Positions 6,983-35,354 of a stretch of 64,000 nt of DNA are shown piece by piece (the stretch's first letter is position 1; each line of letters starts with the position of its first letter). Origin of the DNA: Eubacteriales bacterium (GTDB lineage: Bacteria; Bacillota; Clostridia; Oscillospirales; CAG-272); NCBI GenBank assembly GCA_045128515.1, contig JBGVRO010000062.1, positions 4,776 through 68,775 on the forward strand. The letters are read 5' to 3'. The position numbers and the translations under genes are program-made. A model generated the notes under the pieces. It was not told where the DNA came from. It ran no database searches and saw only the letters and a program-made list of their open reading frames with translations.

Positions 6983-7058
6983 CGAGGTGTAGCGCAGTTG
7001 GTAGCGCGCCAGTTTCGGGTACTGGAGGCCTGGAGTTCGAATCTCCACACTTCGACCA
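6983..7058 (+). tRNA. tRNA-Pro (anticodon CGG)
   Basis: Manual cloverleaf. Acceptor CGAGGTG/CACTTCG (one G-U), D arm GCGC-AGTTGGTA-GCGC, anticodon arm CCAGT-TTCGGGT-ACTGG, variable AGGCC, T arm TGGAG-TTCGAAT-CTCCA, discriminator A and encoded CCA. 76 nt. Confidence 0.9.
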
Positions 7059-7275
7059 AAAAGAAAGTGCTGAAACCCTTTGATTTTACTGGGTTTTCGG
7101 CACTTTTTCATTTTCTTATTTTCGCTCCAAAATCTCTCCAAAACTTGTTTTGACCACATAACTGACCACAACAAAATTCTTTTTATACCGCTTTTTACTT
7201 AATTATTACGTATACAACTACGGAAAGATTATCCGTTTAACCTCGCTAAAGAAGACCGTCACGGCTTTGTTTCGT

Positions 7276-7310
7276 GACGGTCTTCTCTTTGTTTAAGGCG
7301 TTGTAATTTT
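7276..7310 (+). repeat. 35-bp direct repeat, copy 1 (left boundary of AbiH cassette)
   Basis: GACGGTCTTCTCTTTGTTTAAGGCGTTGTAATTTT is 33/35 identical to 10412..10446. It is preceded by the hairpin AAGACCGTCAC...GTGACGGTCTT. Confidence 0.8.
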
Positions 7311-7414
7311 AGCCGACTCACTTGAGTGGTGCTATCATTATGATCACAGATATAACTTGAGAATTTTGTGGCGAATTATCTTTTGCGTGATCTTTTGTTA
7401 ACTTTCGATTTGCG

Positions 7415-8641
7415 TTAATTCCACGGAGCTGTTATGTGAATAATCTCTTCTCCAAAATTTGAATTTAGGTGTAATGAAAAATCTGATAGATCCGTATCTA
7501 GAGAGTAAAATGTTAGTTTTTTGTTTTTCTTCAAATCGTCAAAACCATCTTTACCAAATATTTTTATCAAGTTCTTAATGTAGTCTTTTTTAGCCATTTC
7601 GCTATGATACAGTATGTAAATTTCACTAGCGTGTAAGAACACCTCTTCTAATATATCTTTATCTGTGTCATCTAAAGAATGCCCCATTATTGTTAAATAA
7701 TAGTCCTCGTTCGCTTCGTTTATGTCTCTGATCCACTCTAGATATTTATAATCGGTTCCAAATAAGGTTCTTTGATAATATTTTTTAAACGCTATAAAAG
7801 AAACATTAATGGTTTCAACATTATCGTTCGAGTCGGGGTTGACGCCTATAATGATTCTATCAGTTACCTTTCCGTGTATGTGATAAATTGTGTTTTGAGA
7901 ATACAATTTTTCATATGTATCAGTATAATTAAATGATATCGTATAATCCATATTCTTAACCGCGCTGCATATTGGTGTACTAGACTGATTAACAATGCCA
8001 CTCAAACTAACATCAACAAAGCATTCCAAATATAATTTTAATGCTTTGGCTACTTCATCGAGCATCACCGACATTTTTTCAATTATCTTCGCTTTGTTTA
8101 TCGTTAGATTTTTGGATCCCTGTGGATATTCAATAATGTATTCATCAATTATTTTATGTGTTGTAGTCCCAAATATGCTATCAATTTTAGTTTCCATAAA
8201 AAAACCAAAATGTTTTATCAAATAATATGCCGCTGTGTCTACTCTTGATAAGTTGGGGTTAACAGAAGCAATTGAAAGGAACTTAAAAAACACCTCTATT
8301 ACATAAGTGATTTCTCGTTCAAAATCTATCCACCCAAGATCTTTATTAAACGATTTTGTAAAGTAAGAAAACCATAAGTTTTTAGAGCATATACGAATAA
8401 TTTCATTTATCTTTTCTGCATTCAGCGGCATGCTATCATAAATTTCTTTGTGCCGTTCATAACACTTTGCTATATATGGATCGTCCTCCTGTAGCAATTC
8501 ATCTGAAAAAACAGATCCTATCGTTTTATATTCCTCGCTATAGTATTCAACAAGATAGTTAACCACGTTTAAAAAATTATGATATTTTGTAGGAAGGTAA
8601 TGATATATATCAAATCCGTTTCCAAGCAATAAAACATTCAT
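7415..8641 (-). CDS. AbiH-family abortive-infection protein
   Basis: The N-terminus MNVLLLGNGFDIYHYLPTKYHNFL matches the AbiH hallmark (IGNGFDLAHGLPT.Y.DF), and IMGHSLDDTDKDILEEVF matches the C-terminal AbiH motif. Start moved to the ATG at 8641 (RBS GAGGTG). Confidence 0.75.
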   Translation of the reverse strand: MNVLLLGNGFDIYHYLPTKYHNFLNVVNYLVEYYSEEYKTIGSVFSDELLQEDDPYIAKCYERHKEIYDSMPLNAEKINEIIRICSKNLWFSYFTKSFNKDLGWIDFEREITYVIEVFFKFLSIASVNPNLSRVDTAAYYLIKHFGFFMETKIDSIFGTTTHKIIDEYIIEYPQGSKNLTINKAKIIEKMSVMLDEVAKALKLYLECFVDVSLSGIVNQSSTPICSAVKNMDYTISFNYTDTYEKLYSQNTIYHIHGKVTDRIIIGVNPDSNDNVETINVSFIAFKKYYQRTLFGTDYKYLEWIRDINEANEDYYLTIMGHSLDDTDKDILEEVFLHASEIYILYHSEMAKKDYIKNLIKIFGKDGFDDLKKNKKLTFYSLDTDLSDFSLHLNSNFGEEIIHITAPWN

Positions 8642-8824
8642 TTTTACACCTCTGTATGATAAAATTAGACAAATTAAACTTAACACTAACATTATATCAC
8701 GCAAATCTACACGTTTCAATATAGCCATGATTTTTTATTGAAAATGTGTTTTTTTAGTGATGAAAATCCCGTTACGGTTATTTCCGTGATGGGATTTTCA
8801 TTTATGATTTTAGCTGCACGCCTT

Positions 8825-10315
8825 TTATAAACACAGTGATACAATCCTCTCAAATTGAGACTCATATATACCCGACTCAATTAGGTAAGTGTTCTCGTTT
8901 ATGCCATGCCGAGCAAAAATCTGTTGCAAATCCCGCCCCTCACCCGAAAATGTTTTTTCGCAATTGTATTTTTCTTCAAATATTTTTTCCGCTAACGACG
9001 GATTGTCCTTGTAGGTTTGTAATAGGATTTCAAATTCATTTATATTAACTAACCAGAAACTTCCAACATTGTTATATTCCGGATGTCTCTTAAACCACTC
9101 GTTAAGAGTTTCGCTTTTGAAATACTCTTCGTATACTAGAATTATTTTTATTGTATCACTAAGATTATACGCTTTTTCGGTACTTATCAATTGATCTACA
9201 GCTTCCTTCCAAGTGCTTTCCATATGTTTTAGCATAGCATCTGTATTTGGGTGTGTTTGTTTTATCGAAAGCATAGCCAGACCAGATTTTTGTTCAATAA
9301 AAATAGTCTTGTTAGCAATTTTTAGTAGCCAATCTGCTCGTTTCCCATTGTTTTCCTCTATACGTGAATACAAAGAAGAATCTATACATTTTTGTAACAC
9401 CTCTTTTACATACATCTCGAAAAAAGTTCCGAATGCATTTATGAAGTGTTGCGATTTATACTGCATATAATGATTTCGCATAACCCAATATTCTGAGTTG
9501 GCAAATAAAAACATCAGTAAAATAGGATTTATAGCTACGTATGTTTTCTCATTCAATTTTACAATAGGTTTTGAGTAGAAAACTTGTCGTTTCAAAGGAC
9601 TGTTTCTGGCTTCATTTAAAATAACTGAATATTTTTGTATTATCTTTTTAAAATTGGCAGAATTAATTATTTCATTTGAGCTGTCTATAATAGGATCTTT
9701 AGGCAACGAATCCGTGTCGATAATAAAGCTTAATTGAGTAAAATAAGCAAAAACGGAAAACAACAAACATGCATGCTGATCTGTTGTAAATCCGGTTATT
9801 TCTAAAAATTCTTTCGGTACATTAATGTCATAAATGTTTTCTGGGTCTTCCCTTACCGAAAGTATATCTAGTATGTATTTTTCTCTGGAAAATTCTTCGT
9901 TTGCGTGTGCTGCTCTTTGAAAACGGATTTGTTCCCCTAACATACCATAAACATTTAGCATCGGACTAACCTTATTGCCAGATAATCTCTTGGCACTTTT
10001 GTCATTAGCATAATCATTATGAAGCGCGATTAGATGCAAGGTTTCGTTTTTTGTTATATTTTTGTGACCGTCTAAATTGTTTACAATCAAATCATATGCT
10101 AAATCTAAAAGCCAAGGCTGTACGATAGTAACTTTTCCAAAATGCATTCCGTTATCATTGGGTATCTTATATTTCCTGGATGAAGCAAAGTGACCAAACT
10201 GAGGATCCTCGTGTTGAAAAAGCTCATTAGACCAATATGCTATAGATGCTAGCATTGACTTTAGGGAATAATTTGCAGCATAGAGTAAAAATTTATGTGG
10301 TAATATCACTTTCAT
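8825..10315 (-). CDS. hypothetical protein with predicted PD-(D/E)xK nuclease motif
   Basis: The C-terminal half has FEMYVKE ... RADWLLKIANKTIFIEQKSG, an E...D-x13-ExK pattern. Start moved to the ATG at 10315 (RBS AAGGA), because the longer track ORF would overlap the integrase gene. Confidence 0.45.
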   Translation of the reverse strand: MKVILPHKFLLYAANYSLKSMLASIAYWSNELFQHEDPQFGHFASSRKYKIPNDNGMHFGKVTIVQPWLLDLAYDLIVNNLDGHKNITKNETLHLIALHNDYANDKSAKRLSGNKVSPMLNVYGMLGEQIRFQRAAHANEEFSREKYILDILSVREDPENIYDINVPKEFLEITGFTTDQHACLLFSVFAYFTQLSFIIDTDSLPKDPIIDSSNEIINSANFKKIIQKYSVILNEARNSPLKRQVFYSKPIVKLNEKTYVAINPILLMFLFANSEYWVMRNHYMQYKSQHFINAFGTFFEMYVKEVLQKCIDSSLYSRIEENNGKRADWLLKIANKTIFIEQKSGLAMLSIKQTHPNTDAMLKHMESTWKEAVDQLISTEKAYNLSDTIKIILVYEEYFKSETLNEWFKRHPEYNNVGSFWLVNINEFEILLQTYKDNPSLAEKIFEEKYNCEKTFSGEGRDLQQIFARHGINENTYLIESGIYESQFERIVSLCL

Positions 10316-10411
10316 ATTGTCAATCCTTGTAATCTTCTTTTCATTATTATAGCATATTTTAAATGCATTTTCAATTGTTTTATATATCGTGACCGCCGCG
10401 ATAATTTCCGC

Positions 10412-10446
10412 GACGGTCTTTTCTTTGTTTAAGGCGGTGTAATTTT
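10412..10446 (+). repeat. 35-bp direct repeat, copy 2 (right boundary of AbiH cassette, abuts integrase stop codon)
   Basis: GACGGTCTTTTCTTTGTTTAAGGCGGTGTAATTTT, preceded by the hairpin GACCGCCGCG...CGCGACGGTC. Confidence 0.8.
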
Positions 10447-11867
10447 TAACCGTTTTTCTTGAGTTCGGCAATCTCGATTTTCATCTCTTTTATTAGCTCT
10501 ACAAGCTTCGCCTCGCACTCTTCTTCGGTATGAGCATACACGTTTCTTGGCATTCTTTTGCCGTTTACAGTTGGTGTGTATCGCCCTTCCCATAGGTGAT
10601 CGTTTATCTTCGTTATGCAACCGGTGCCGGGCTTTCGGTATTTGCTCTTTACGGGCTCAAATTTCTGTTTTGGTGCGGTTTTATCACCATCCGTGTTAAG
10701 TTCTCCGATTGTTTTCTCTTTTGTCGACACACCGCGAATTCCTCGGTCAATACTCCTTGCTGCTTCCTTTTGCATCTTGTCGGTGCTATGCAGGTAAATG
10801 TCGAGAGTCGTTGACGATGACACGTGACCGATTATTGAGGAGAGTGTTTTTATATCCATTCCGTTCGCAAGTGCGGTTGTTGCAAAGGTGTGCCTTAGGT
10901 CATGGAATCTTATTCGTTTACAGTCGGCTCTTTCAAGCACCTTGCGTATCTTCTTTTGCAGGGTGTTCGGGTTTCTCGGTACGTCATCAACCTTTGGCGA
11001 TGGGAACATCCAGCGAGAGTGAGTTTCCTCTTTCAATTTCTTCAAGACTTCGAGAACTGCTTCGGGAAGCTTTATCGTTCTTATCGAGCTTTTTGTTTTC
11101 GGCTCGTTTGTCTGCATCTTACCGTTTAAGTAGTAGGCTTGTCTTCTTATTTCAAGCATACCCGTGTTAAAGTCTAGGTCTTGCCACTGGAGACCCATTA
11201 TCTCACCTCTACGCATACCAGTGGTGAGTGCAAGAAGGCAGATTTCAAAGTATCCGTCATACTTTGCTTGTATAAGGAATCTCTGCATTTCTTCCTCGGT
11301 CAGTGTGTTCATCTCCTTGGCTTTCTTCGGAGGTATCTTGCAACCGACTGCAACATTTGTATGTACGAGTCCGTCTTCAAGTGCCTTTTCAAGTGCTGAT
11401 CTGCAATGTGCGTGACATGCTCTTACCATTCTGTCAGACATTCCCTCACCGAGCGTGTCTTTGTATTGCAGTCTTCCGTTCTTTTTCATTCTTGCATAGA
11501 ACTGCTCAAGGTCGTTTGCGTTGAGTCTTTCGAGGACTATCTTGCCTATTTCGGGGATTATGTGCTTATAGATCACGTTCTCGTAAGCTGCTTGAGTTGA
11601 TGGGCGGAGCGAGAGCTTTTTATAATTCTGATACCAAAAGTCTATCCACTCCCCGAAGAGCATATTCGATGTAACCTTATCTCGTCTTACTATTCCTATC
11701 TCGCTTTTGAGCTTTTCAAGCTTCGCTTCGCACTCCATCTTCGTTTTTGCGAGTACGTTCTTGGTCTTGGGAAGTCCTTTTTCATCGTAGCCTACAAGTA
11801 CTCGTCCTTCCCATCTGCCGTCACTTCTTTTGCGGACTGTTCCGCTTCCTCTGTCTCTTCTTCCCAT
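10446..11867 (-). CDS. tyrosine recombinase/integrase (N-terminal and extra C-terminal arm-binding-like domains)
   Basis: N-terminus GSGTVRKRSDGRWEGRV. Catalytic region RFHDLRHTFAT ... GHVSSSTTLDIYLH. The C-terminal 80 aa repeat the N-terminal pattern (ITKINDHLWEGRYTP...EEECEAKLVELIKEMK). RBS AGGAGG. Confidence 0.85.
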   Translation of the reverse strand: MGRRDRGSGTVRKRSDGRWEGRVLVGYDEKGLPKTKNVLAKTKMECEAKLEKLKSEIGIVRRDKVTSNMLFGEWIDFWYQNYKKLSLRPSTQAAYENVIYKHIIPEIGKIVLERLNANDLEQFYARMKKNGRLQYKDTLGEGMSDRMVRACHAHCRSALEKALEDGLVHTNVAVGCKIPPKKAKEMNTLTEEEMQRFLIQAKYDGYFEICLLALTTGMRRGEIMGLQWQDLDFNTGMLEIRRQAYYLNGKMQTNEPKTKSSIRTIKLPEAVLEVLKKLKEETHSRWMFPSPKVDDVPRNPNTLQKKIRKVLERADCKRIRFHDLRHTFATTALANGMDIKTLSSIIGHVSSSTTLDIYLHSTDKMQKEAARSIDRGIRGVSTKEKTIGELNTDGDKTAPKQKFEPVKSKYRKPGTGCITKINDHLWEGRYTPTVNGKRMPRNVYAHTEEECEAKLVELIKEMKIEIAELKKNG

Positions 11868-11868: not shown

Positions 11869-13038
11869 CTAACCTCCTATGATATCACCGAATAAGCTCT
11901 CGGTGAAGTTACCCACTATGTTGGATGCTCTCTCTTGCATATCACTCGTTACGTGGGTGTATGTATCCAAGGTAAAGCTTGCGTTGGTATGCCCGAGGAT
12001 TTTCGAAAGTGTCTTGGCATCCACTCCACTCGTCAGTGCGTGGGTTGCGAAGGTGTGTCTTAGGTCGTGGAATCTTATGCTCGGCAGACCTGCCGATTTG
12101 AGAATCTTTTTCAGCTTATGGTAAGCGCTGTTTGGCAGCATTGGATCTTCGGGTCTATACGGATTCGGGAATATCCACTCGGTGAGAGATTGCTTTTTTC
12201 TATCCTTTAATATATTAACAGTGCTTTCGGGGAGATATATTATTCTCTTTCCGGTTTCGGTTTTAGTTTCACCGATTTCTACTCCTCCGCCACTCTTTGC
12301 GCTCGCACTTCTCTGTATCGTAAGCGTTCCGTTTTTCTCATGGAAGTCCGACCATTTGAGCCCGCATATTTCACCTCTGCGAAGACCTGTAGTTAACTCC
12401 GTATAGAAGAAGTCTCGCCATATTTCGTCCTTGTCCACCTCTACAAGAAATCTATCGAGCTCTTCCTTGTTAAGCACTTTGAGATCACCTCGACTCTTCT
12501 TCGGTATCGTAGTACCTTTCGTAGGATTCCTCGATATGAGCCTTTGCTTTACTGCAGTATCCAAAGCCTGATGCAGAATCATATGTACCGCTCTTACTAC
12601 CGAGTCGGATAGCAACGCGCCATATTTATCTACACCGCTTATTCTTCCATTCTCTTTAACATCTACATACATTTTCTGCACGTCGTTTGTTGTGATGAAT
12701 GAAATCTTTTTATCCCCAAGGCGAGGATTTATATAACACTCCACGGCTCTTCTGTATTTTTCAAGTGTCCTCGGGCGGAGCTCATTTTCCTTGTACTCGA
12801 TGAGCCACCTTTCAAGCCACTCGGCAAGTGTCATTGAGCTATCTTCTGATAACTCTACGCCCCTATATTCAAGTATTTTTGCGTGAAGCTTTTTCGTTAA
12901 CTCTTTTTGCGTTTGAGCAAGAACATATCTGAATATTGGTTTGCCATCGTCCTTGTGTCCGACTACTATTCTACCTTCCCATCGACCGTCATTTCGTTTT
13001 CTGACTAGTCCGTCTCCGTCAGGTCTTTTGTTTCCCAT
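11869..13038 (-). CDS. tyrosine recombinase/integrase (paralogue)
   Basis: N-terminus GDGLVRKRNDGRWEGRI. Catalytic region RFHDLRHTFATHAL ... GHTNASFTLDTYTH. Its stop TAG lies 1 nt before the next integrase ATG. Start set at 13038 (RBS AAAGGAG). Confidence 0.85.
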   Translation of the reverse strand: MGNKRPDGDGLVRKRNDGRWEGRIVVGHKDDGKPIFRYVLAQTQKELTKKLHAKILEYRGVELSEDSSMTLAEWLERWLIEYKENELRPRTLEKYRRAVECYINPRLGDKKISFITTNDVQKMYVDVKENGRISGVDKYGALLSDSVVRAVHMILHQALDTAVKQRLISRNPTKGTTIPKKSRGDLKVLNKEELDRFLVEVDKDEIWRDFFYTELTTGLRRGEICGLKWSDFHEKNGTLTIQRSASAKSGGGVEIGETKTETGKRIIYLPESTVNILKDRKKQSLTEWIFPNPYRPEDPMLPNSAYHKLKKILKSAGLPSIRFHDLRHTFATHALTSGVDAKTLSKILGHTNASFTLDTYTHVTSDMQERASNIVGNFTESLFGDIIGG

Positions 13039-13151
13039 AGATTTCTCCTTTCTGTTTTTTTGTAACACAACAATATCACAGGTTCAACCAAATATCCAGA
13101 CATTTTTCAATGTTTTTGAAAAGAATTGTTTGCATTTTGAAAAAATCAAAG

Positions 13152-13565: not shown

Positions 13566-13822
13566 AATGCTTTCCTTTCTTTTGTGACCCATAAAATAAT
13601 CTATGGGAATTTGCTTTGAAATCTGCGAAAAAGCGGTCGATGACCCTTTATTCTGCGTCAAAGGCGTTTTACCGACGTACACTTTTATAAAGAGGCAAAA
13701 GTGCCAAAAACCCTTACGCTGTCGGCACTGCCGTCAGCTGTGATATGGGTGAAAGTCGGTTACCGACGTACACCCTTTCTCCTGCTTAAAAATCGACCGA
13801 ACTTTTAAGGCTGGTTTTTGCC

Positions 13823-14753: not shown

Positions 14754-14766
14754 GATTACACCCCCA

Positions 14767-15378: not shown

Positions 15379-15398
15379 ATGCACCTCCAAGATATGAT

Positions 15399-27343: not shown

Positions 27344-27382
27344 ATGTATCCATCCTAAGTTTTTACAGTATTTATCGCAATG

Positions 27383-28219: not shown

Positions 28220-28245
28220 AAAACCGTGCACTTTAACACGGTTTT
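28220..28245 (-). terminator. terminator after the HslV-like gene
   Basis: AAAACCGTG-loop-CACGGTTTT, followed on the minus strand by GAACATTTTT. Confidence 0.5.
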
Positions 28246-28268
28246 GTCCTGAACTACTTGTAGTTTGC

Positions 28269-28880: not shown

Positions 28881-28905
28881 CCTATATTCTCCTTTATATT
28901 CTTAA

Positions 28906-29949
28906 TTACGCTACTCTAACACCCGAAATTGCTCTCATAATATCTGCTTCGGTGATATTCGTGTTTTCGGGAGCACCTGCAATAATACTTCTAATGACAG
29001 ACTGCTTTGCCTTTTCACAGACATATTCAATCTCCGCACCCGAAAAACCTTCTGTATTATTGGCAAGACGTACATAGCTTGTAATCTGACACGGTATACC
29101 ATTCAGATGCTTTTCAAACATCAACTGTCTGGTTTGCATATCCGGCAACGGAACATATATTTTCTCATCGAACCTTCCGGGGCGAATTATCGCTCGATCA
29201 AGAATATCCGGTCGGTTTGTAGCGGCAATAACGGTAACGTTTCCGGAAGAACGATTTATACCGTCCAGCTGTGTTAACAACTCTGCTACCATACGGTTTG
29301 CAATAGTATCATTATTACGCTTTGAGGCTATAGAATCAATTTCATCGAAGAAAATAACCGCACTTTCTTCTTTCCTTGCCTCGTCGAATAAAGCTTTTAT
29401 CTTTCCTTCGGTTTCGCCAAACCATTTACTGCCAAGATCGGAAAACTTTATTGAAAAGAAGGTGGATTCGGTTTCGTTTGCAATAGCTTTGGCAATCATT
29501 GTTTTACCGTTTCCGGGAGGGCCGTACAAAAGAATACCACCTCCCACCTTTTTGTTGAATTTTTTATAAAGTTCCTTATACCGTCTTGGATAAAGTATCT
29601 TGTCGTATATCTGACTTTTAACTTCGTCAAGACCGATGACATCCGAGAATGATACGTTAGGTATTTCGGATTTATCAAATGCAAATTTTTCGTCACTCTG
29701 AACCTTCACAGAAGAGCTACGCTTTAACTTTAGCTTGATATATTTTTCAAGCTCTCTTACATGCGCCACCATCTCCAGCAACCAATCGCGCATTTCGTCT
29801 TGCTCCTCATCACATAGCCCCTGCACGTATTCCTTTAATTGCATCGCTGCGCCCTCAAAATATTTGATTGCCAGCTCCGGTTCGTCTTTAGCTAAATACA
29901 TAATACCGTTTGCGTATGCTGATAAAAAACGATCGTTATTATTACTCAT
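28906..29949 (-). CDS. classical-clade AAA+ ATPase with N-terminal MIT-like domain (Vps4/spastin/katanin-like)
   Basis: Walker A LLYGPPGNGKT, Walker B VIFFDEIDS and SRH ATNRPDILDRAIIRPGRFD. PNVSFSDVIGLDEVK parallels Vps4 PNVKWSDVAGLEGAK. The N-terminal 70 aa follow three-helix MIT spacing. Confidence 0.75.
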   Translation of the reverse strand: MSNNNDRFLSAYANGIMYLAKDEPELAIKYFEGAAMQLKEYVQGLCDEEQDEMRDWLLEMVAHVRELEKYIKLKLKRSSSVKVQSDEKFAFDKSEIPNVSFSDVIGLDEVKSQIYDKILYPRRYKELYKKFNKKVGGGILLYGPPGNGKTMIAKAIANETESTFFSIKFSDLGSKWFGETEGKIKALFDEARKEESAVIFFDEIDSIASKRNNDTIANRMVAELLTQLDGINRSSGNVTVIAATNRPDILDRAIIRPGRFDEKIYVPLPDMQTRQLMFEKHLNGIPCQITSYVRLANNTEGFSGAEIEYVCEKAKQSVIRSIIAGAPENTNITEADIMRAISGVRVA

Positions 29950-29961
29950 ATGTATATCTCC

Positions 29962-31173
29962 TTACTTCAAATTGCTTGTACTTTTTTGCAACTCGAAAAA
30001 CTCCTTTACTTTATAAAAGACGCTTTCGAACGCATGATATGTTTGAGGTAGATACTTTTGAACATTAGTAAGTAAATCATCTCGTCCTGTTATTTTCAAA
30101 GAAAAGAGATTTGCCCAAAGCTCATCCACCTGATAGGCTTCGTCTTTTCTGTAATAGGCCGAAGTGTGTATTTGCAAGTTGTAGGGATGTTCCATGTCGC
30201 AAACTGATGACAACACATCCAAAATAGCCTCGTTATCCTCGCAGAACTGTTTGTGAGCCCTACAATGTATCATTTTTTCTCTAGTGGCAATCATTGATTT
30301 TTCAACAATCAATTTGCTCATCTCTTGATACTTTTCGTATTTTTTTTGGAAATCAGGAGTTTTTTGACGATTGCTCTTAAACGACGGGATAAATATTCCG
30401 CAGCATCCACCAAGAGATCTCGACAGCTTGTAATACTCGGCAAGGAAAGTGCTGTTTTCAGCAATTGCAGAATACTCCACTTCACTAAGTTCACCTACAA
30501 CCGCTGCTTTATGTGCCTCCAGTATTTTTTCTTTAATCGTTCCTTCGTTCTCTGAAATTTCTCTCTTTAGGACATCGGCAAGTGTACCTTCCCCCAAAAT
30601 TTGCATAGACAACAAATCGTATGATTGTGTTCGATCTCCAAATAAGCACTGTGCTCCGGCATGTCCTAATTCATGAAAAAGCGTGCTTCCATCTATGTCA
30701 TCAATGGTGGAAAAAACTTTAATTCTAATGTTACCGTCTGAATCCTTTCCTGATGTACAATATTGTGTTCTATCAATAGAAAATTGCACATCGTTTACGG
30801 TTATGATATTATAGACAAACTCCAAGAACTCATCTTTTATATTTGTTATAGCTCTCGTAAGTTTCTCTTCGTCTATAATCTGATATTTTTTAATATTCTT
30901 CTCGTTAACATACCTGTGTTTGTACTGATTAATAATATCTTCGTGTGAAATTGTCGAATCCAGACCAGCCTCGTGCTCTAATTCGCATGCTTCAATCATT
31001 CGATTAAGTTCAGACTCTTCCTCTTCGCTTAATTCAAATGAATAGGATGAGATAAACTCTTCATACATAGCATCTATTTCCTCCTCACTGACAGACCTTT
31101 GTCCTTTGCTGTTTGACATTACCCCAACTCCTTCGCATCCGATGTTTTTGGCGTTTTTCTTTGAATTTTCCAT
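29962..31173 (-). CDS. HExxH zinc-metallopeptidase-like protein
   Basis: STLFHELGHAG motif mid-protein, acidic N-terminal region, RBS AAGGAGA. Its stop lies 12 nt before the AAA+ start. An alternative start at 31119 also has an AAGGAG RBS. Confidence 0.5.
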   Translation of the reverse strand: MENSKKNAKNIGCEGVGVMSNSKGQRSVSEEEIDAMYEEFISSYSFELSEEEESELNRMIEACELEHEAGLDSTISHEDIINQYKHRYVNEKNIKKYQIIDEEKLTRAITNIKDEFLEFVYNIITVNDVQFSIDRTQYCTSGKDSDGNIRIKVFSTIDDIDGSTLFHELGHAGAQCLFGDRTQSYDLLSMQILGEGTLADVLKREISENEGTIKEKILEAHKAAVVGELSEVEYSAIAENSTFLAEYYKLSRSLGGCCGIFIPSFKSNRQKTPDFQKKYEKYQEMSKLIVEKSMIATREKMIHCRAHKQFCEDNEAILDVLSSVCDMEHPYNLQIHTSAYYRKDEAYQVDELWANLFSLKITGRDDLLTNVQKYLPQTYHAFESVFYKVKEFFELQKSTSNLK

Positions 31174-31310
31174 TAGTAATTCTCCTTATCAACAAATTAT
31201 GCAAACAGCTAAACTCATAGATGGTATTTCAAACCCTCTTTTACGTTGGCATAGGAAGATCAGTTTCAACGTCCTTAATAAGCCTCAACAGTTTGCTTTT
31301 GACATATACA

Positions 31311-31339
31311 ATTATACCCCCATTCTACTTGTTTGTAAA
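31311..31339 (-). promoter_or_regulatory. sigma-A-type promoter for the peptidase/AAA+/HslV-like operon
   Basis: On the minus strand: TTTACA (31334..31339), 17 nt, TATAAT (31311..31316). Confidence 0.5.
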
Positions 31340-31433
31340 CGAACATATAACACGGAGGATTTGTTCCTGTTTTTGAATATTTTACAGCTTATTCATTGTT
31401 TTGTGGGTATATTAATGGAACTTTTGGCATATA

Positions 31434-31486
31434 AAAAATAAAAAAACGGCATAAAATTGATACTATCATGTATCAATTTTATGCCG
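31434..31486 (-). terminator. rho-independent terminator after the 290-aa gene
   Basis: A perfect 16-bp stem CGGCATAAAATTGATA / TATCAATTTTATGCCG with an 8-nt loop, followed on the minus strand by a T-run of 7 or more. Confidence 0.8.
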
Positions 31487-31505
31487 TTGGTCTTATAGTA
31501 TAAAA

Positions 31506-32378
31506 TTAAAAATTCTTAGATACTGTGGTTTTAATTTGCTTTGATTTGAATATTCCTATTTTATATACTACCACAATAGAAGCCTCTATATTTCCACCAT
31601 AGGTGTCGGTGGGCAAATCAAATTCCGTAGTGCTCTCCAATTGAGTAGGAAGTTTCTTCTCGAGCTGGTCACCTTTACCTTTGAGAGATGCAGTAATGCT
31701 TGAAATTTTCAATCCTTCTTGATTCTGAATAGAAACTTTAAGCTTAAAGTTTACCATTCCTTTTTTGTTAAAAAGACCTTTTGTATATCTACCTTCTCCT
31801 CTCTCGAGAGTTGCTTTCAGCTTCAAATTACCATCTGCTGTCGCACCAGATTCAGCAGGTCTTCCAGTTTTGTGTTGCGCTGAAGTGGGTTTAGAGGAAT
31901 TTGAACTAACGGTGTTTCGAGATGGCGTGCGAGAAGGTTGATCTATAGGAGCCTTTCTAACAATCATGTGTTCAAGGGATCTCAAACCGTATTTGTCTGC
32001 AATTCTAGTGACAAGATTGTTATATGTGGTTACACATCTTAACATATCGATATTAACATTATCTACTATAGCATGCTTATTACGGTTTCCTTTGTCGTTT
32101 ATTCCTATGTCATCAAACGTTTCTATCAATCCGACGTTGTCCAGTACGGTTTCACATAAATAGTTGATACTGGTATAACAATACGCAATATTTGGGCCGT
32201 TTGAAACCTCTGAGACCATGATGCCGAGTTTTGTAATCAATATTTGCATATTGGTGATAAATGGATTTACAAATCCTCTTGCATAATTTTCACAAACACT
32301 TTTATAATAAGCCCTGACCGAGTTTTTGAAAATTTTTTCCTTGATTTTTGCATCAGCACCGGGAACTAATTTTATCAT
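31506..32378 (-). CDS. hypothetical protein: helical N-domain (possible DUF4145/HEPN-like), low-complexity linker, beta-rich C-domain
   Basis: Start set at 32378 (RBS AAGGAG). A GNRNKHAIV segment resembles GNxxxH of DUF4145. A Ser/Pro/Thr-rich linker is followed by alternating-pattern beta strands. Confidence 0.45.
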   Translation of the reverse strand: MIKLVPGADAKIKEKIFKNSVRAYYKSVCENYARGFVNPFITNMQILITKLGIMVSEVSNGPNIAYCYTSINYLCETVLDNVGLIETFDDIGINDKGNRNKHAIVDNVNIDMLRCVTTYNNLVTRIADKYGLRSLEHMIVRKAPIDQPSRTPSRNTVSSNSSKPTSAQHKTGRPAESGATADGNLKLKATLERGEGRYTKGLFNKKGMVNFKLKVSIQNQEGLKISSITASLKGKGDQLEKKLPTQLESTTEFDLPTDTYGGNIEASIVVVYKIGIFKSKQIKTTVSKNF

Positions 32379-32419
32379 ATGTATATCTCCTTGTTGATAT
32401 TGCATCTAGAGCAATAATT

Positions 32420-33547
32420 CTATTCGTCAAATGTAGCCGAGTCACATTCTTGTCTTACATATTTGTCATAAGCGTCTTTGTAGCGTTGAATAAACTTGTT
32501 TCGCGTTATCTCCGGAGAGAGAATTTCTACATCGCGCGCAAGTTTGAAGAAATAGTTAATCGCCTGAACTTCAGTGCATTTAAACAAGTATGTATTTTTT
32601 TCTTCATTAAGAACCTCAAAATCGTTGGGGCGCATATAAAGTTGCCGATTAAAGCTTTCTACTCCTTTATCGGTGAACCTTACTTTTAATTCAATAACTT
32701 CTCCTGCTAAAAATTGGGGTTCTTTTTCCGAGACCATTTTGTCGATAGCCTCTCTGTCTGCTTTTGAAATAAAACCGCTCTTACTCAAGCTAATACGAGG
32801 ATGATCTATTCTGGAAATTCGATAGCAAACCGCTCTTCTAGGCCGGGTTTCGTTGCTATCCTGTTTTACCTCCTCAGAATAACCAATTACATAGTTAAAC
32901 ATCCTTGTTTTATCTTGAATGATTTTATAAGGAACCAAATAAAATTTTCGAGTATAGGTTTCATTGCTGTTAGGATTAATCTTTTTTAAGATAGACATGC
33001 TCACACTCTTCTTTTGAGAAATCGCACTTTGAAGAATGTCCATGATATCTCTGAAATAGATTTGTTCGCGCTCAAACATTGGTTTTAATGCATATTCTTC
33101 AAAAACAGCTTTTAGATATGCTCCAATAGCATTGTTGTAGTAAATGTTTTCTGATGATTCTCTTAAGATTTCAACATTTTCTTTGTTAATTCTAAACTTG
33201 CGTCCTTCGCCCTTTTCGTAGCTACCAACCTTCGCTATAAGCTCTTTTTCATAAACATCAAGTATTTTAGATATATATAAATCAGTAGTTTTTTTGTCCA
33301 TGGATTTGAATTCCTTGGACGAAAACATAGCCACAAGCTCTTCGTTCTTTTTCAGAAAACGTTGTGATATAGTTGCTTCTGCTTCTTGATAGAAATTAGT
33401 AAATATGCGATTTAAAAATCCAGCTAAATTATATTTGGCGCCATTGCTAAAGTTTTTAACGTCCTCGTCTATAACAAGCCACGCTGATGTTGAAAGATTA
33501 AGGTGTTGTTTCAACTCAGTTTCCAAATCCGCTATATAGAACCCCAT
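32420..33547 (-). CDS. WYL-domain protein with WCX-like C-terminus and no obvious N-terminal HTH
   Basis: RKFYLVPYKIIQDKTRMFNYVIGYS...RRAVCYRISRI has the WYL-domain pattern. ...IELKVRFTD...YLFKCTEVQAINYFFKLARDVEILSPEITRNKF has the WCX pattern. Confidence 0.55.
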   Translation of the reverse strand: MGFYIADLETELKQHLNLSTSAWLVIDEDVKNFSNGAKYNLAGFLNRIFTNFYQEAEATISQRFLKKNEELVAMFSSKEFKSMDKKTTDLYISKILDVYEKELIAKVGSYEKGEGRKFRINKENVEILRESSENIYYNNAIGAYLKAVFEEYALKPMFEREQIYFRDIMDILQSAISQKKSVSMSILKKINPNSNETYTRKFYLVPYKIIQDKTRMFNYVIGYSEEVKQDSNETRPRRAVCYRISRIDHPRISLSKSGFISKADREAIDKMVSEKEPQFLAGEVIELKVRFTDKGVESFNRQLYMRPNDFEVLNEEKNTYLFKCTEVQAINYFFKLARDVEILSPEITRNKFIQRYKDAYDKYVRQECDSATFDE

Positions 33548-33657: not shown

Positions 33658-33924
33658 TCAGTTCTTTTTTATTATATCAAGTATCATTTGTGCTCCTAGT
33701 TTGAAAGCATATTCGAAGATAGCTGCTTCTGCGCGGCTCACGTATTCATCCCAGCAGTCGTGTAGCTTCTCATACAGTTCCTTTTGCTCTGCATTAAAGG
33801 TCTTATCTAAATCCTCGTGATGCCTGGCGATGTAGCCTAGCAGTTCCTTCATCTCTTTTGTGTTCGTTCTGCTGTCCTCTTGGGGCACGATATTTCCGTG
33901 CCATAGTTCTTTTATTATGTTCAT
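33658..33924 (-). CDS. hypothetical small helical protein
   Basis: ATG at 33924 with a GGAGG RBS. MNIIKELWHGNIVPQE... 88 aa. Confidence 0.5.
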   Translation of the reverse strand: MNIIKELWHGNIVPQEDSRTNTKEMKELLGYIARHHEDLDKTFNAEQKELYEKLHDCWDEYVSRAEAAIFEYAFKLGAQMILDIIKKN

Positions 33925-34102
33925 TCTTATTACCTCCGGTAGCACAACACAATACCACACAAATTTCGTAAAGTCCAGACTTTTGGAGAAAGAAAAAACG
34001 ACGATTTTACTCGTCGCTATTCTTTGTTTCAGGCAGTAAAGATTTTTGCCATTGTGTTTTGTCGTCCATGCTATAGTTCCTCAAGAAAATGCATAAAATA
34101 AT

Positions 34103-34131
34103 ATTGACAAAATCACGGTATCGTGATATAA
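34103..34131 (+). promoter_or_regulatory. consensus sigma-A promoter with embedded inverted repeat
   Basis: TTGACA (34103..34108), 17 nt, TATAAT (34126..34131). The spacer contains ATCACG-GTAT-CGTGAT. Confidence 0.7.
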
Positions 34132-34165
34132 TATTAATGCAAGTAATTGAAAAAGGAGTTTTCCA

Positions 34166-34420
34166 ATGCCTGTATTATCTCAATTTTACGGAATTATAAT
34201 TAGAATGTACTTTTTGCAAAGTGAGCACAATCCTCCGCACATTCACGCAATCTACAACGAGGATGTTGCTGCTATAGATTTTATGACGGGTGAGGTTCTT
34301 GAAGGTCATCTTCCGCCCAAAGCTTTGAGCATGGTTAAGGAGTGGCTCGCGCTCCATAAGAACACCTTGATGGAGATTTGGAAGACACAAGAATTCAAGA
34401 AGATACCGCCGCTGGAATAA
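34166..34420 (+). CDS. DUF4160-family protein
   Basis: FYGIIIRMYF...EHNPPHIHA is the family hallmark. RBS AAAGGAG. Confidence 0.75.
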   Translation: MPVLSQFYGIIIRMYFLQSEHNPPHIHAIYNEDVAAIDFMTGEVLEGHLPPKALSMVKEWLALHKNTLMEIWKTQEFKKIPPLE

Positions 34421-34431
34421 GGAGATTTACT

Positions 34432-34872
34432 ATGTTTCACAAAATAAAAAACATTTCGGCTTTGCCGGATTTTAAGCTCTCGGCTCAGTTCTCCGAGGGA
34501 GTAACAAAAATTTACGACGTTAAGCCTTTGTTTGAGAAAATACCGTTCTTTGCTACGCTCAAGGATCAGCCCGAAGTCTTTGCTTCGGTAACCGTTGATG
34601 TCGGTGGCTACGGCATCGTTTGGAATGATGAGCTCGACCTTTCTTGTGATGAGCTTTGGGAGAACGGTGTGCAAGTTGATACCCCCTTCGACGGACTCCT
34701 GGCATTTAGTGACGCGACTGAACTTTGGGGACTTAACGAGAGCACTCTCCGCAAGGCAATCACCTACGGCAAGCTCGTGAACGGAGTTGACGTGTGCAAG
34801 TTTGGCAAGCAGTGGGTCGTGTCAATCGAAGCCATGAAACGCGAGTACGGCAACGCTGGGGATCGCGTATAA
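34432..34872 (+). CDS. DUF2442-family protein with C-terminal helix-turn-helix extension
   Basis: The pattern ...LSAQFSEGVTKIYDV...VDVGGYGIVWNDELDLSCDELW is DUF2442-like. The C-terminus ATELWGLNESTLRKAITYGKL is HTH-like. ATG at 34432 with a GGAG RBS. Confidence 0.65.
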   Translation: MFHKIKNISALPDFKLSAQFSEGVTKIYDVKPLFEKIPFFATLKDQPEVFASVTVDVGGYGIVWNDELDLSCDELWENGVQVDTPFDGLLAFSDATELWGLNESTLRKAITYGKLVNGVDVCKFGKQWVVSIEAMKREYGNAGDRV

Positions 34873-35305
34873 TATCGAGCCGGTATTCTTTGTTTAGTGT
34901 TGACTAATTTTCGATCAGTGCAAGGCGCTTTTCATTGTCTTAGGCATAGTGATTTTTCACGATTGATCTTTGTATAAGGCTGATAAGATTTTTATCATCA
35001 AAAGCTCTTGCTTTTTCTTCGTTTTAGAGTTACAATACAGCAAACCAAGCGTATATTTCGTGCATATTTCTTAACACGGGTACGGTTTGTTAATGGGGGA
35101 GAAAAGTTCATTAACTTTCAATTTTCCATTTTCAACTGTCCACTGTCAAACCGTTTGCAAAGCAAAAACGGTTTGACCACATAACTGACCACAACGGGAA
35201 TTGTTCTATACGGAAACAACGGAAACAATGTGCAAAATGGTGCGTTTTAGCGGAATATACGGACTATATGTAAACAAAAGTGTTGAAAAAACGAATAAAG
35301 GTCGC

Positions 35306-35354
35306 TTCGGGTACTGGAGGCCTGGAGTTCGAATCTCCACACTTCGACCAAAAA
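35306..35354 (+). repeat. attR: displaced 3' part of tRNA-Pro (positions 32-76 plus 4 nt)
   Basis: 49/49 identical to 7014..7062. Followed by its own hairpin GAAAAGAGAGCC...GGTTCTCTTTTC plus a T-run. Confidence 0.9.

What the first reader, a model, noticed from the sequence alone, without database searches (positions are those of the whole stretch)
7014..35354. 28.3-kb genomic island inserted in the anticodon loop of tRNA-Pro(CGG)
**The repeat.**
- 7014..7062 and 35306..35354 are a perfect 49-bp direct repeat.
- It begins at tRNA position 32 (TTCGGGT loop) and runs through the CCA plus four A.
- This is the classic footprint of a tyrosine-integrase element that supplies a replacement 3' tRNA half.

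**The content.**
- Between the repeats lie two integrase genes, a LexA/S24-type repressor and almost exclusively accessory genes.
- By eye, the composition is patchy. It is very AT-rich at 7.4-10.4 and 15.5-22 kb, and richer at 22-27 kb.
- I recognise no capsid, terminase or tail genes and no relaxase or T4SS genes. So it is neither an obvious prophage nor a self-transmissible ICE.
Basis: partly seen in the sequence, partly recalled or inferred. Interest (0 to 1): 0.6.

Follow-up and report, generated by a model that had tools for sequence, protein, structure and literature searches.

The report
Defence island carrying its own tRNA-Pro
A 28.5-kb mobile island really is inserted in the anticodon loop of a proline tRNA gene of a gut Clostridia bacterium, but it cuts the host gene in two and brings a complete spare tRNA-Pro gene, a strategy so far described only for some phages.

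Summary
The 49-bp perfect repeat (7014-7062 = 35306-35354) and tRNA-Pro(CGG) at 6983-7058 are real. An empty-site strain of the same species (L085) proves an insertion.

The empty site joins window 6826 directly to 35313 across the 7-nt anticodon loop TTCGGGT. It does not join at the intact tRNA. The inserted DNA is therefore 6827-35312 (28,486 bp). It includes a 156-bp left arm and the whole intact tRNA gene. The host gene survives as a 5' half (6789-6826) and a 3' half (35306-35354).

Relatives with 52-91% identical integrases show the same layout: host 5' half, then a 150-190 bp arm with YTGACCAC sites, then a complete tRNA-Pro. In many the island tRNA differs in sequence from the host halves (L094, L101, L110, L114, L141, L144). 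Several loci are nested, one element inside the tRNA of the previous one.

The family normally carries a MobL relaxase and two tandem tyrosine integrases. The window copy lacks MobL and carries defence-like cargo.

The closest known mechanism is phage "tRNA-dependent lysogeny" (2024). The island itself and its target are right.

The parts
6349..6377 (+). Host promoter of the tRNA-Pro gene (TTGACA-17-TATAAT with TG extension)
   Evidence: It scores 12/12 in the consensus scan. It is conserved in L001, L094 and L085.
6403..6425 (+). F1, an old copy of the first 18-23 nt of tRNA-Pro followed by insert X (6426-6720). It is not part of the island.
   Evidence: (family D4). It is also present in the empty-site strain. 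Its origin is unexplained.
6789..6826 (+). Host 5' half of tRNA-Pro(CGG), positions 1-38. It ends with the anticodon loop TTCGGGT (6820-6826), which is the attL crossover core.
   Evidence: D3. The alignment with the empty site L085 shows that the native leader and this half are contiguous with the 3' half at 35306.
6827..6982 (+). Island left (P') arm of 156 bp. It holds the conserved box CCCTTGAAAACACT (6872-6885), arm-type site (a) TGACCACATGTTTGACCAC (6934-6952) and a weak promoter-like site (6945-6974).
   Evidence: It is absent from the empty site. It aligns with the left arms of L094, L139, L141 and L144. The arm motif has 3 hits against 0.00 expected. Promoter scan.
6983..7058 (+). Complete island-borne tRNA-Pro(CGG), the only intact copy at the locus
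   Evidence: ARAGORN and Rfam at 64.5 bits. Both of its flanks are island DNA.
7014..7062 (+). Copy 1 of the 49-bp repeat, which is the 3' half of the island's own tRNA plus AAAA
   Evidence: D5
7151..7169 (+). Arm-type site (b), TGACCACATAACTGACCAC, identical to site (c)
   Evidence: (D8)
7311..10405 (-). AT-rich cassette (GC 0.32) holding AbiH (7415-8728) and a 548-aa protein of unknown family (8825-10471). It was inserted between the tRNA and the integrase operon and is flanked by a duplicated terminator (7270-7310 and 10406-10446, 90% identical).
   Evidence: (D7)
10446..11867 (-). Int1, a tyrosine recombinase of 473 aa. It has an N-terminal arm-binding-like domain and a second copy of that domain at the C terminus.
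   Evidence: Pfam, internal repeat, structure model, and a family of more than 7,600 proteins
11869..13068 (-). Int2, a paralogous tyrosine recombinase of 399 aa, 40% identical to Int1 and translationally coupled to it
   Evidence: The Int2-Int1 pair is conserved in all related elements.
13152..15390 (-). Backbone genes: a 176-aa protein (27% identical to the RHH protein that precedes MobL in relatives), a 126-aa protein, a 71-aa zinc-ribbon ORF (14538-14753) and a LexA/S24 repressor-like protein (14767-15390). There is no MobL.
   Evidence: The same MobL-less backbone occurs in L139, 90.5% identical at the nucleotide level.
15500..33547 (-). Variable cargo, in order:
- a P-loop kinase-like protein;
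- an ABC importer (ATPase, FecCD, binding protein);
- a 744-aa JAB+E1 protein;
- a PP2C, two vWA proteins, a Ser/Thr kinase and an FtsK-gamma protein;
- a DEDDh exonuclease;
- a proteasome-like protein next to an IetA-like AAA ATPase;
- three proteins without a Pfam match, one of which has a WYL domain by PADLOC.
   Evidence: The cargo differs between strains (L084 and L135).
33658..34872 (.). Conserved right-end module: DUF6809 (33658-33960, - strand), DUF4160 (34166-34420, + strand) and DUF2442+HTH_59 (about 34432-34872, + strand)
   Evidence: The same module lies at the right end of many related elements.
35174..35192 (+). Arm-type site (c) in the right (P) arm, 114-132 nt before the core
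   Evidence: (D8)
35306..35354 (+). Displaced host 3' half of tRNA-Pro, which is copy 2 of the 49-bp repeat. The attR core TTCGGGT is at 35306-35312.
   Evidence: It is contiguous with 6826 in the empty site. Island homology stops at the core in A4.
35355..35391 (+). Native terminator-like hairpin of the host tRNA gene
   Evidence: Read directly from the sequence. It is 98% conserved directly after the tRNA in L085. The consensus scan did not call it.
35515..35816 (+). Older 3'-end fragments R2 (35515-35536) and R3 (35795-35816), each inside a 77-nt repeat. They are outside the island and are also present in the empty-site strain.
   Evidence: (D1, D2)

Best explanation
**What it is**
- Window 6827-35305, plus one copy of the 7-bp core, is an integrative element. 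It belongs to a large Clostridia family of integrative mobilizable elements (IMEs).
- The family backbone is: regulators, usually a MobL relaxase, Int2, Int1, then a tRNA-Pro gene.

**How it integrates**
- The attP site is a P arm with a YTGACCAC pair, the core TTCGGGT, and a P' arm with a second YTGACCAC pair.
- A complete tRNA-Pro(CGG) gene sits 156 bp inside the P' arm, in the same orientation as the target gene.
- The tyrosine integrases (Int1 with or without Int2) exchange strands within the 7-nt anticodon loop of the host tRNA-Pro(CGG) gene.
- attP and attB share only those 7 bp, so the host gene is split and not rebuilt.
- The island's own tRNA gene now lies just downstream of the strong host promoter and the orphan 5' half, and takes over the function.
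- Precise excision through the two cores (6820-6826 and 35306-35312) would restore the host gene, as seen in strain L085.

**This copy**
- It has lost, or never had, the relaxase.
- It carries mostly defence-type cargo: AbiH, an IetA-like ATPase with a proteasome-like protease, an E1/JAB protein, a kinase/PP2C/vWA cluster and an exonuclease.

**Shown and inferred**
- Shown: the insertion, its boundaries, the split host gene, the island-borne complete tRNA, the recurrence of this layout across the family, and the arm motifs.
- Inferred: which integrase acts, strand exchange exactly within the loop, expression of the island tRNA by read-through, SOS control by the LexA-like protein, and present-day mobility.
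For: **1. Empty site**
- L085rc 4163-4290 equals window 6699-6826 (99%). L085rc 4284-4550 equals window 35306-35572 (98%). The two overlap by exactly TTCGGGT.
- The intact tRNA at 6983 has different flanks on both sides.

**2. Same layout around close integrase relatives, at other loci and in other hosts**
- L094: nrdG locus of a related species. The host 5' half has anticodon stem CCAGT, while the island tRNA has CGACG/CGTCG.
- L139/L140: next to pheST.
- L141: the host half is identical to the window's host tRNA, but the island tRNA is of another type.
- L101: 3 mismatches between host half and island tRNA, including a compensated stem pair.

**3. Complete elements with both host halves**
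- L144 (13,235 bp): its left arm is 73% identical to the window's, with the same arm site.
- L114.
- In both, the two host halves join into a valid tRNA-Pro. Chimeras of host 5' half and island 3' half are not recognised as tRNA-Pro for L114, L094 and L144, though the L110 chimera still is.

**4. tRNA-Pro(UGG)-targeting relatives**
- They show host 5' half, then TTTGGGA, then an arm, then a complete and different tRNA. L110 is the clearest.
- Nested series of 2-3 broken 5' halves occur in L112, L121, L119, L122 and L142.
- L103 has an attP-like junction: P arm, core, P' arm, tRNA.

**5. Arm motif**
- TGACCACATNNYTGACCAC occurs three times in 64 kb, all at the island ends, against 0.00 expected.
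- The P arm is conserved up to about 13 nt from the core, after which host-specific 3' halves follow.

**6. A sister branch is classical**
- The P0014 branch (65% Int1 identity) carries the 3' half of tRNA-Pro plus a whole tRNA-Val.
- This mirrors the Boilgate/Fionnbharth pair in phages (PMC10865867).

**7. Integrases and composition**
- Both integrases retain the R..HxxR..Y motifs.
- GC and tetranucleotide content differ from the flanks.
Against: - No excised circle or attP junction of this island was found. The one metagenome hit to the predicted junction was a chance 20-mer.
- In the window the host halves and the island tRNA are 100% identical. This locus alone cannot exclude a two-step history. 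The argument rests on relatives.
- The bases next to the core in the reconstructed attP (GGTCGC|core|GCAAACC) do not resemble the attB half-sites (GCCAGT|core|ACTGGA), and they vary among relatives. The core-type binding sites are therefore undefined.
- The island's tRNA promoter is weak (9/12), and expression is untested.
- tRNA-Pro(CGG) may be dispensable where tRNA-Pro(UGG) reads all four CCN codons (my own knowledge, not tested). The island tRNA may therefore not be needed for viability. In L144 the island tRNA has anticodon AGG.
- This copy has no relaxase and no recognisable excisionase.
Confidence: 0.8

Rival explanations
1. Two-step history. An earlier related element left a 194-bp scar (the 156-bp arm plus a new tRNA 5' half) in front of the tRNA. 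The present 28.3-kb island is then a classical element whose attP carries the 49-bp block from anticodon loop to 3' end, with arm sites (c) and (b), and which integrated into that already rearranged tRNA.
For: - The 49-bp perfect repeat has identical arm sites (b) and (c) at roughly symmetrical distances on either side.
- A sister branch of the family really is classical.
- Recombination between the 49-bp repeats would leave exactly such a scar. Scar-like units exist at related loci.
- In the window the host halves and the island tRNA are identical, so the locus itself does not discriminate.
Against: - It needs two events where one suffices.
- The same 5' half, arm and complete tRNA precede the integrase module in every close relative examined, at different loci and in different hosts.
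- In L094 and L139 the clear arm site lies in the 156-bp arm, and only a degenerate one follows the tRNA.
- In L144 and L114 the displaced 3' half pairs with the upstream 5' half, not with the island tRNA. No intermediate host tRNA exists there.
- No strain with the scar alone was seen for this species.
Confidence: 0.12
2. It is a degraded prophage or phage satellite rather than a conjugation-related element, and the tRNA is an ordinary phage-borne tRNA.
For: - IMG/VR and a faecal virome data set contain related contigs labelled viral or "Bacteriophage sp.".
- A LexA/S24 repressor and AbiH are common on prophages.
Against: - Pfam and PHROGs find no capsid, terminase, portal, tail or lysis gene.
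- Relatives carry a MobL relaxase with an RHH accessory gene next to the integrases.
- The viral labels are unverified and unannotated records.
Confidence: 0.04
3. It is an assembly artefact or a segmental duplication. The repeated tRNA pieces caused a chimeric join, and no real insertion exists.
For: Contigs of the same strain from short-read assemblies break at these repeats (L081 ends at 6462 and L093 starts at 35325).
Against: - Independent assemblies show the same junction types in relatives.
- The empty site differs by exactly the predicted segment.
- The island has distinct composition, intact att-like ends and an integrase module.
Confidence: 0.02

Closest known systems
tRNA-dependent lysogeny of actinobacteriophages (Fionnbharth/subcluster K4 and cluster L; Guerrero-Bustamante & Hatfull, mBio 2024, PMC10865867)
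   Same: - A tyrosine integrase with arm-type sites flanking attP.
- attB lies inside a host tRNA gene.
- The common core is only about 7-10 bp, so the tRNA is not rebuilt.
[quoted passage not shown]
- Close integrase relatives use the classical long-core solution (Boilgate there, the P0014 branch here).
   Different: - This is not a phage. It is an IME-type island with relaxase-bearing relatives and defence cargo.
- The host is a gut Clostridia bacterium.
- The spare tRNA is built into the P' arm 156 bp from the core, in the orientation of the target. In Fionnbharth it lies elsewhere, overlapping gene 37 on the opposite strand.
- There are two tandem integrases.
- Nested serial insertions go into the previous element's tRNA.
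- Dependence of viability on the island tRNA is untested, and doubtful for a CGG isoacceptor.
Classical tRNA-targeting genomic islands and prophages (Reiter 1989; Williams 2002; Islander database, PMC4383910)
   Same: - The target is the anticodon-loop sublocation of a tRNA gene.
- A tyrosine integrase lies near the tRNA end.
- A displaced 3' fragment marks the far end.
- The site is a hot spot with fossils of earlier events.
   Different: - The regenerated gene is not a hybrid of host 5' half and island 3' half.
- A 5' fragment is left behind as well.
- The identity block is 7 bp.
- Tools that delimit islands by the tRNA and its 3' repeat place the left boundary 194 bp too far right.
Integrative and mobilizable elements of Firmicutes (Guedon et al. 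2017, PMC5704250; Coluzzi et al. 2017, PMC5357655), including tandem and matryoshka composites (PMC12084326)
   Same: - An integrase module plus, in relatives, a single relaxase (MobL, PF18555) with an RHH accessory protein.
- No T4SS.
- Variable cargo.
- Composite nested arrays.
   Different: - This copy lacks the relaxase.
- In the papers searched and opened I found no MobL IME family with paired integrases and an element-borne target tRNA.
Prophage Lj965 of Lactobacillus johnsonii (cited in PMC10865867 as a possible case outside Actinobacteria)
   Same: Integration is reported not to rebuild the tRNA, and the prophage encodes a cognate tRNA (as cited).
   Different: It is a prophage. I did not examine its sequence here.

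Membership tests
tRNA-dependent integration (as defined for tRNA-dependent lysogeny, PMC10865867) | A tyrosine-family integrase with arm-type sites flanking attP | tested here: met
   Int1 and Int2 match PF00589 and PF14659. YTGACCAC pairs lie on both arms, 3 hits against 0.00 expected.
tRNA-dependent integration (as defined for tRNA-dependent lysogeny, PMC10865867) | attB overlaps a host tRNA gene, and the common core is too short to rebuild it | tested here: met
   Comparing empty site L085 with the window gives a 7-bp overlap, TTCGGGT. The host gene is left as 6789-6826 and 35306-35354.
tRNA-dependent integration (as defined for tRNA-dependent lysogeny, PMC10865867) | [quoted passage not shown] | tested here: met
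   A complete tRNA-Pro(CGG) lies at 6983-7058 inside the inserted DNA. The same holds in relatives whose tRNA sequences can be told apart from the host's.
tRNA-dependent integration (as defined for tRNA-dependent lysogeny, PMC10865867) | The element tRNA is required for survival of integrants | not testable with these tools
   This needs genetics. The number of tRNA-Pro genes in the host genome is unknown from a 64-kb window.
tRNA-dependent integration (as defined for tRNA-dependent lysogeny, PMC10865867) | The element is a temperate phage | tested here: not met
   Pfam and PHROGs find no virion, packaging or lysis genes. Relatives carry MobL.
Classical tRNA-restoring genomic island (Williams 2002; Islander) | The intact tRNA at attL is a hybrid of the host 5' part and an island-supplied 3' part, and the island begins inside or just after it | tested here: not met
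   The upstream flank of the intact tRNA (6827-6982) is absent from the empty site. The host 5' half sits at 6789-6826. In L094, L114 and L144 the chimeras are not recognised as tRNA-Pro.
Classical tRNA-restoring genomic island (Williams 2002; Islander) | A direct repeat of the tRNA 3' segment at the distal end, and an integrase near the tRNA | tested here: met
   The 49-bp repeat. The integrase operon ends 250 bp from the tRNA once the AbiH cassette is discounted (D7).
Integrative and mobilizable element (IME) | Own integration/excision module | tested here: met
   Int1 and Int2 are full length with the catalytic R..HxxR..Y motifs retained. Cores and arm sites are intact at both ends. No excisionase was recognised.
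Integrative and mobilizable element (IME) | Own relaxase and/or oriT, without a T4SS | tested here: inconclusive
   The window has no relaxase (tblastn with L094 MobL gave only E > 1). Relatives L094-L101, L130 and L144 have MobL. An oriT was not identified. The MobL-less backbone is nevertheless found in another host and locus (L139).
Integrative and mobilizable element (IME) | Demonstrated excision as a circle and mobilisation by a helper | not testable with these tools
   The search for the circle junction gave only a chance hit.
Iet (IetAS) defence system | An IetA AAA ATPase paired with the IetS serine protease | tested here: not met
   28906-29949 matches IetA models (E = 7e-44). Its neighbour 28269-28880 is proteasome-like (PF00227), not IetS, and has no PADLOC hit.

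The most novel reading that the evidence does not exclude
A very large and so far undescribed family of integrative mobilizable elements in gut Clostridia uses "tRNA-dependent integration".
- Each element carries a complete tRNA-Pro gene inside its attP arm and recombines through only the 7-10 nt of the anticodon loop.
- It can therefore enter any tRNA-Pro gene regardless of the rest of that gene's sequence, and it replaces the host gene with its own.
- It then offers that new gene as the landing site for the next element.
- The result is Russian-doll arrays, trails of orphan 5' halves and short scars at tRNA-Pro loci.
- A pair of integrases drives this, one of which has arm-binding-like domains at both ends.
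- Standard island finders would misplace the boundaries of all of these elements.
Probability: 0.55. Interest if true: 0.7.

Novelty: new variant of a known kind. Interest (0 to 1): 0.6.

Why it matters
- It takes a mechanism described in 2024 for actinobacteriophages and shows it in a different kind of mobile element, a different phylum and an abundant human and animal gut lineage.
- The comparative evidence is natural: empty site, complete elements, and nested arrays.
- It explains orphan 5' tRNA halves, which the classical model cannot produce.
- Island-delimiting rules based on "tRNA plus 3' repeat" give wrong boundaries for such elements.
- Carrying the whole target gene may free an element from matching each host's tRNA sequence. 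That would be relevant to host range and to the spread of defence cargo.
- The attP arm, tRNA and integrase cassette could also serve as a compact integration tool for Clostridia, by analogy with the mycobacterial vectors of PMC10865867.

Tried and rejected
- **GTDB representatives via NrdG.** The best relative, L001 (72% NrdG identity), keeps nrdD-nrdG-tRNA-Pro synteny but has a different right flank. It was therefore useless as an empty site.
- **Exact-protein look-up of NrdG.** It returned only short contigs that break at the tRNA repeats.
- **Metagenome scan for the predicted circle junction GGTCGCTTCGGGTGCAAACC.** The single hit, L102, has no other similarity to the window and is a chance match.
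- **Viral-contig scan with Int1 alone.** It found nothing. Only the alignment query worked.
- **Exact look-ups of the DUF2442 ORF (from its TTG start) and of AbiH.** Neither is on record.
- **Rfam on the whole window and, permissively, on 6200-7400.** Only the tRNA was found, so F1-X and the left arm match no known RNA family.
- **MobL remnant in the window.** None was found.
- **Excisionase.** No HTH_17-type small ORF near the integrases.
- **Pfam on the isolated N- and C-terminal small domains of Int1 and Int2.** No hits.
- **Tandem classical insertion followed by deletion, as the origin of the 5' half.** I rejected this because classical integration never separates a 5' half from the loop-proximal 3' sequence.
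- **L134.** It looked like a minimal element, but it is a decayed remnant next to an intact host tRNA.

Full report
**1. The observation**

ARAGORN and Rfam find a single tRNA in the window, tRNA-Pro(CGG), at 6983-7058 on the + strand. The segments 7014-7062 and 35306-35354 are a 49-nt perfect direct repeat (family D5). The repeat starts at tRNA position 32, the loop TTCGGGT, and ends after CCA plus AAAA. Bases just outside it differ on both sides.

GC content is 0.397 between the repeats, against 0.482 and 0.450 in the flanks.

Pfam, NCBIfam, PADLOC and PHROGs confirm the stated gene content:
- two tyrosine integrases, Int1 (10446-11867) and Int2 (11869-13068);
- a LexA/S24 protein (14767-15390), which passes the NCBIfam LexA cut-off;
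- accessory genes, with no virion, relaxase or T4SS gene.

**2.

The repeat search also finds other pieces of the same tRNA.
- On the left are F1 (6403-6425, tRNA positions 1 to about 18) and F2 (6789-6826, positions 1-38, ending exactly with TTCGGGT).
- On the right, beyond the 49-bp copy, are R2 (35515-35536) and R3 (35795-35816). Both start in the T stem, and each has its own terminator-like hairpin.

Classical integration, in which the element supplies the 3' part, can leave 3' fragments. It cannot leave 5' halves.

**3. The organism and the empty site**

- NrdG homologues place the window in uncultured Eubacteriales/Clostridia from guts. The best species representative, L001, keeps nrdD, nrdG, the promoter, a leader and tRNA-Pro(CGG), but has another right flank.
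- An exact look-up of the right-flank protein (36738-37214) returned a contig from a conspecific strain, L085 (flanks 96-98% identical). In it that gene lies 1.5 kb from nrdG.
- L085 matches window 6699-6826 at 99% and then window 35306-35572 at 98%. The two matches overlap by the seven bases TTCGGGT.
- The uninterrupted host gene is therefore F2 plus the 3' copy at 35306, with the native leader upstream and the native terminator (35355-35391) downstream.
- The intact tRNA at 6983-7058 has neither of these flanks. The inserted DNA is 6827-35312 (28,486 bp). It includes a 156-bp arm and a complete tRNA gene.
- Other strains (L084, L088-L090) carry a different but related island at the same site. 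Its right end is 80% identical to the window's, and its cargo differs.

**4. One event or two?**

In the window the host halves and the island tRNA are identical in sequence. A two-step history, with an older 194-bp scar followed by a classical island, cannot be excluded from this locus alone. I therefore looked at relatives of Int1. The family is very large: more than 7,600 proteins at E < 1e-30 among the candidates scored.

Every close relative examined has the same order: host promoter and leader, host 5' half ending with the loop, a 150-190 bp arm, a complete tRNA-Pro, and then the integrases.
- **L094** (86% Int1 identity; nrdG locus of another species): the host half has anticodon stem CCAGT and loop TTCGGGT. 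The complete tRNA has CGACG/CGTCG and loop TTCGGGA.
- **L101** (63%): three differences, including a compensated stem pair.
- **L139/L140** (89%; 90.5% nucleotide identity to window 10405-15461): the same layout next to pheST in another host.
- **L141** (91%): the host half is identical to the window's host tRNA, but the island tRNA is of the L139 type.
- **L144** (MT835887.1): a complete 13,235-bp element with host DNA on both sides. Its left arm is 73% identical to window 6827-6982 and has the identical arm site. The upstream 5' half (stem CATGG) and the distal 3' half (CCATG) join into a valid tRNA-Pro(CGG). The element's own tRNA is different.
- **L114**: a decayed element that again has both host halves and a distinct element tRNA.

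ARAGORN does not recognise chimeras of host 5' half and element 3' half as tRNA-Pro for L094, L114 and L144. The L110 chimera is still called tRNA-Pro, so there the evidence is the outright sequence difference.

Relatives that target tRNA-Pro(UGG) show host half, then TTTGGGA, then GCATAGACGG, then an arm with TTGACCACAGATTTGACCAC, then a complete and different tRNA. L110 is the clearest case.

Several loci have two or three successive broken 5' halves, each followed by an element left arm (L112, L121, L119, L122, L142). This is what repeated insertion into the previous element's tRNA predicts. L103 shows the junction P arm, core, P' arm, tRNA. That junction is either the attP itself or a tandem array.

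This recurrence across loci, hosts and anticodons makes the one-step reading much the better one. I put it at 0.8, against 0.12 for the two-step history.

**5. Anatomy of the recombination sites**

- The motif TGACCACATNNYTGACCAC occurs three times in the window against 0.00 expected. The sites are:
  - 6934 in the left arm, 107 nt after the core;
  - 7151, after the island tRNA;
  - 35174 in the right arm, 114 nt before the core.
- Left arms of close relatives share the box CCCTTGAAAACACT and the arm site.
- Right arms are conserved up to about 13 nt before the core. After the core the sequence is the host-specific 3' half.
- The reconstructed attP (GGTCGC TTCGGGT GCAAACC) shares exactly 7 bp with attB (GCCAGT TTCGGGT ACTGGA). 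In L141 the shared core reaches 10 bp, and in the UGG group it appears to as well.
- The bases beside the core are not conserved, so core-type binding sites remain undefined.

**6. Integrases**

- Int1 and Int2 are 40% identical and both keep the catalytic motifs. The pair is conserved throughout the family.
- Int1 has a C-terminal repeat of its N-terminal arm-binding-like module (38% identity over 61 residues).
- That repeat is conserved in alignment A2 and is predicted as a second beta-sheet-plus-helix unit after a disordered linker (mean pLDDT 73.5).

**7. Expression of the island tRNA**

- The host promoter (6349-6377) scores 12/12. No terminator was called between it and the island tRNA. 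The island's own promoter-like site scores only 9/12.
- I infer transcription by read-through followed by normal tRNA processing. This is not shown.

**8. What kind of element it is**

- Relatives share a backbone of HTH_17, HTH_36, a small RHH-like protein, a MobL relaxase, Int2 and Int1. They also share a right-end module of DUF6809, DUF4160 and DUF2442/HTH. The family therefore looks like integrative mobilizable elements.
- The window copy has the right-end module, the RHH-like protein (176 aa, 27% identical), a 126-aa protein and the LexA-like gene. It has no MobL.
- L139 has the same MobL-less backbone in another host, so this variant has moved.
- An AT-rich cassette with AbiH and a 548-aa protein was inserted between the tRNA and the integrase operon. 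It is bounded by a duplicated terminator (D7).
- The remaining cargo is an ABC importer with a JAB+E1 protein, a PP2C/vWA/vWA/kinase/FtsK-gamma cluster, a DEDDh exonuclease, a proteasome-like protein with an IetA-like ATPase, and a WYL protein. It varies between strains (L084, L135).

**9. Comparison with what is known**

[quoted passage not shown] That rule is not met here.
- The closest described mechanism is tRNA-dependent lysogeny (PMC10865867). It combines a tyrosine integrase, an attB inside a tRNA, a common core of about 10 bp, no reconstruction of the tRNA, and a phage-encoded tRNA of the same isotype. A close relative there uses a 43-bp core.
- The same dichotomy exists in this family. 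The P0014 branch carries the 3' half of tRNA-Pro plus a whole tRNA-Val, and is found in tandem arrays.
- The differences are listed under Closest known systems. In brief: this is not a phage, the tRNA sits in the attP arm, there are two integrases, insertions are nested, and dependence on the tRNA is untested.
- Five literature searches found no description of this arrangement for IMEs or genomic islands. That library is incomplete.
- I therefore rate it a new variant of a known kind.

**10. Verdict**

The island is real and the target is right. The finding is moderately interesting in itself. It becomes more so as a window onto a large family that uses tRNA-dependent integration outside phages.

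Noticed in passing
window 6403-6720; also L085, L082/L083, L134 1630-1820, L097-L099, L108, L109, L120, L124, L142: - A copy of about 15 nt of leader plus the first 18-23 nt of tRNA-Pro (F1), followed by a 300-nt insert X, sits between the host promoter and the native leader.
- It is present in the empty-site strain, shortened in other strains, homologous in another species, and absent from L001, L094, L100 and L139.
- Related loci have similar units of 5' fragment plus 110-200 nt, up to three in tandem with a 204-bp period.
- These may be scars of earlier tRNA-carrying elements, or a small non-autonomous element. Rfam finds nothing.
   Followed up: partly
window 1990-2190 (upstream of nrdD) and 6426-6720: Parts of insert X recur in inverted orientation upstream of nrdD (2051-2159, 89-100% identity in pieces). 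There they are flanked by CTGCATT(C) tandem repeats. This looks like a small dispersed repeat.
   Followed up: partly
window 35515-35536 and 35795-35816 (within 77-nt repeats 35460-35536 and 35740-35816): Two further 3'-end fragments of tRNA-Pro start in the T stem, each followed by its own hairpin. They are also present in the empty-site strain. They are probably fossils of older insertions by elements that use another sublocation.
   Followed up: partly
window 36383-36732: A segment of about 350 bp is bounded by 38-nt inverted repeats (36377-36414 and 36690-36727, 79% complementary). It is present in the window and in L085/L086, and absent from L084, L087-L090 and L092. This looks like a MITE-like insertion polymorphism.
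   Followed up: partly
window 10446-10670 (Int1 residues about 400-473): Int1 carries a second copy of its N-terminal arm-binding-like module at the C terminus. The copy is conserved across the family and is predicted as a beta-sheet plus helix after a disordered linker. This architecture is unusual for a tyrosine integrase.
   Followed up: partly
window 28269-29949: An AAA ATPase that matches the IetA defence models (E = 7e-44) is paired with a proteasome-type (PF00227) protein rather than the IetS serine protease. It may be an Iet-like variant with a different protease.
   Followed up: no
window 16316-22029: A 744-aa protein with JAB and E1 (ThiF) domains, which gives weak hits to the CBASS-type E1-E2 and 6A-MBL Cap2/3 models, lies in one gene string with a FecCD/ABC importer and a P-loop kinase-like protein. 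The combination is odd.
   Followed up: no
window 22144-27023: This gene string encodes PP2C, two vWA proteins, a small ORF, a Ser/Thr kinase (with mad6 and PD-T4-6-like hits) and an FtsK-gamma winged-helix protein. From memory it resembles the "TerY-P triad" described by Anantharaman et al. 2012, which I did not test. L135 has 92% identical kinase and FtsK-gamma genes joined to a different neighbour.
   Followed up: no
L144 2466-2542 (MT835887.1): The tRNA carried by this related element has anticodon AGG (loop TTAGGGA), although the element disrupts a tRNA-Pro(CGG). Either the copy is mutated or its decoding is altered.
   Followed up: no
L095-L100 (P0014 branch): A sister element (65% Int1 identity) carries the 3' half of tRNA-Pro(CGG) plus a complete tRNA-Val(GAC) in its attP. 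It also has a 1,022-aa protein with weak RdRP (PF05183) hits. It is found in at least four different genomic contexts with identical integrases.
   Followed up: partly
window 14204-14540: The intergenic region between the 126-aa gene and the zinc-ribbon ORF holds a 21-nt direct repeat (14221-14241 and 14322-14342, CT.AAA..GCCTTGGTCTAGA). It could be an operator or an oriT.
   Followed up: no
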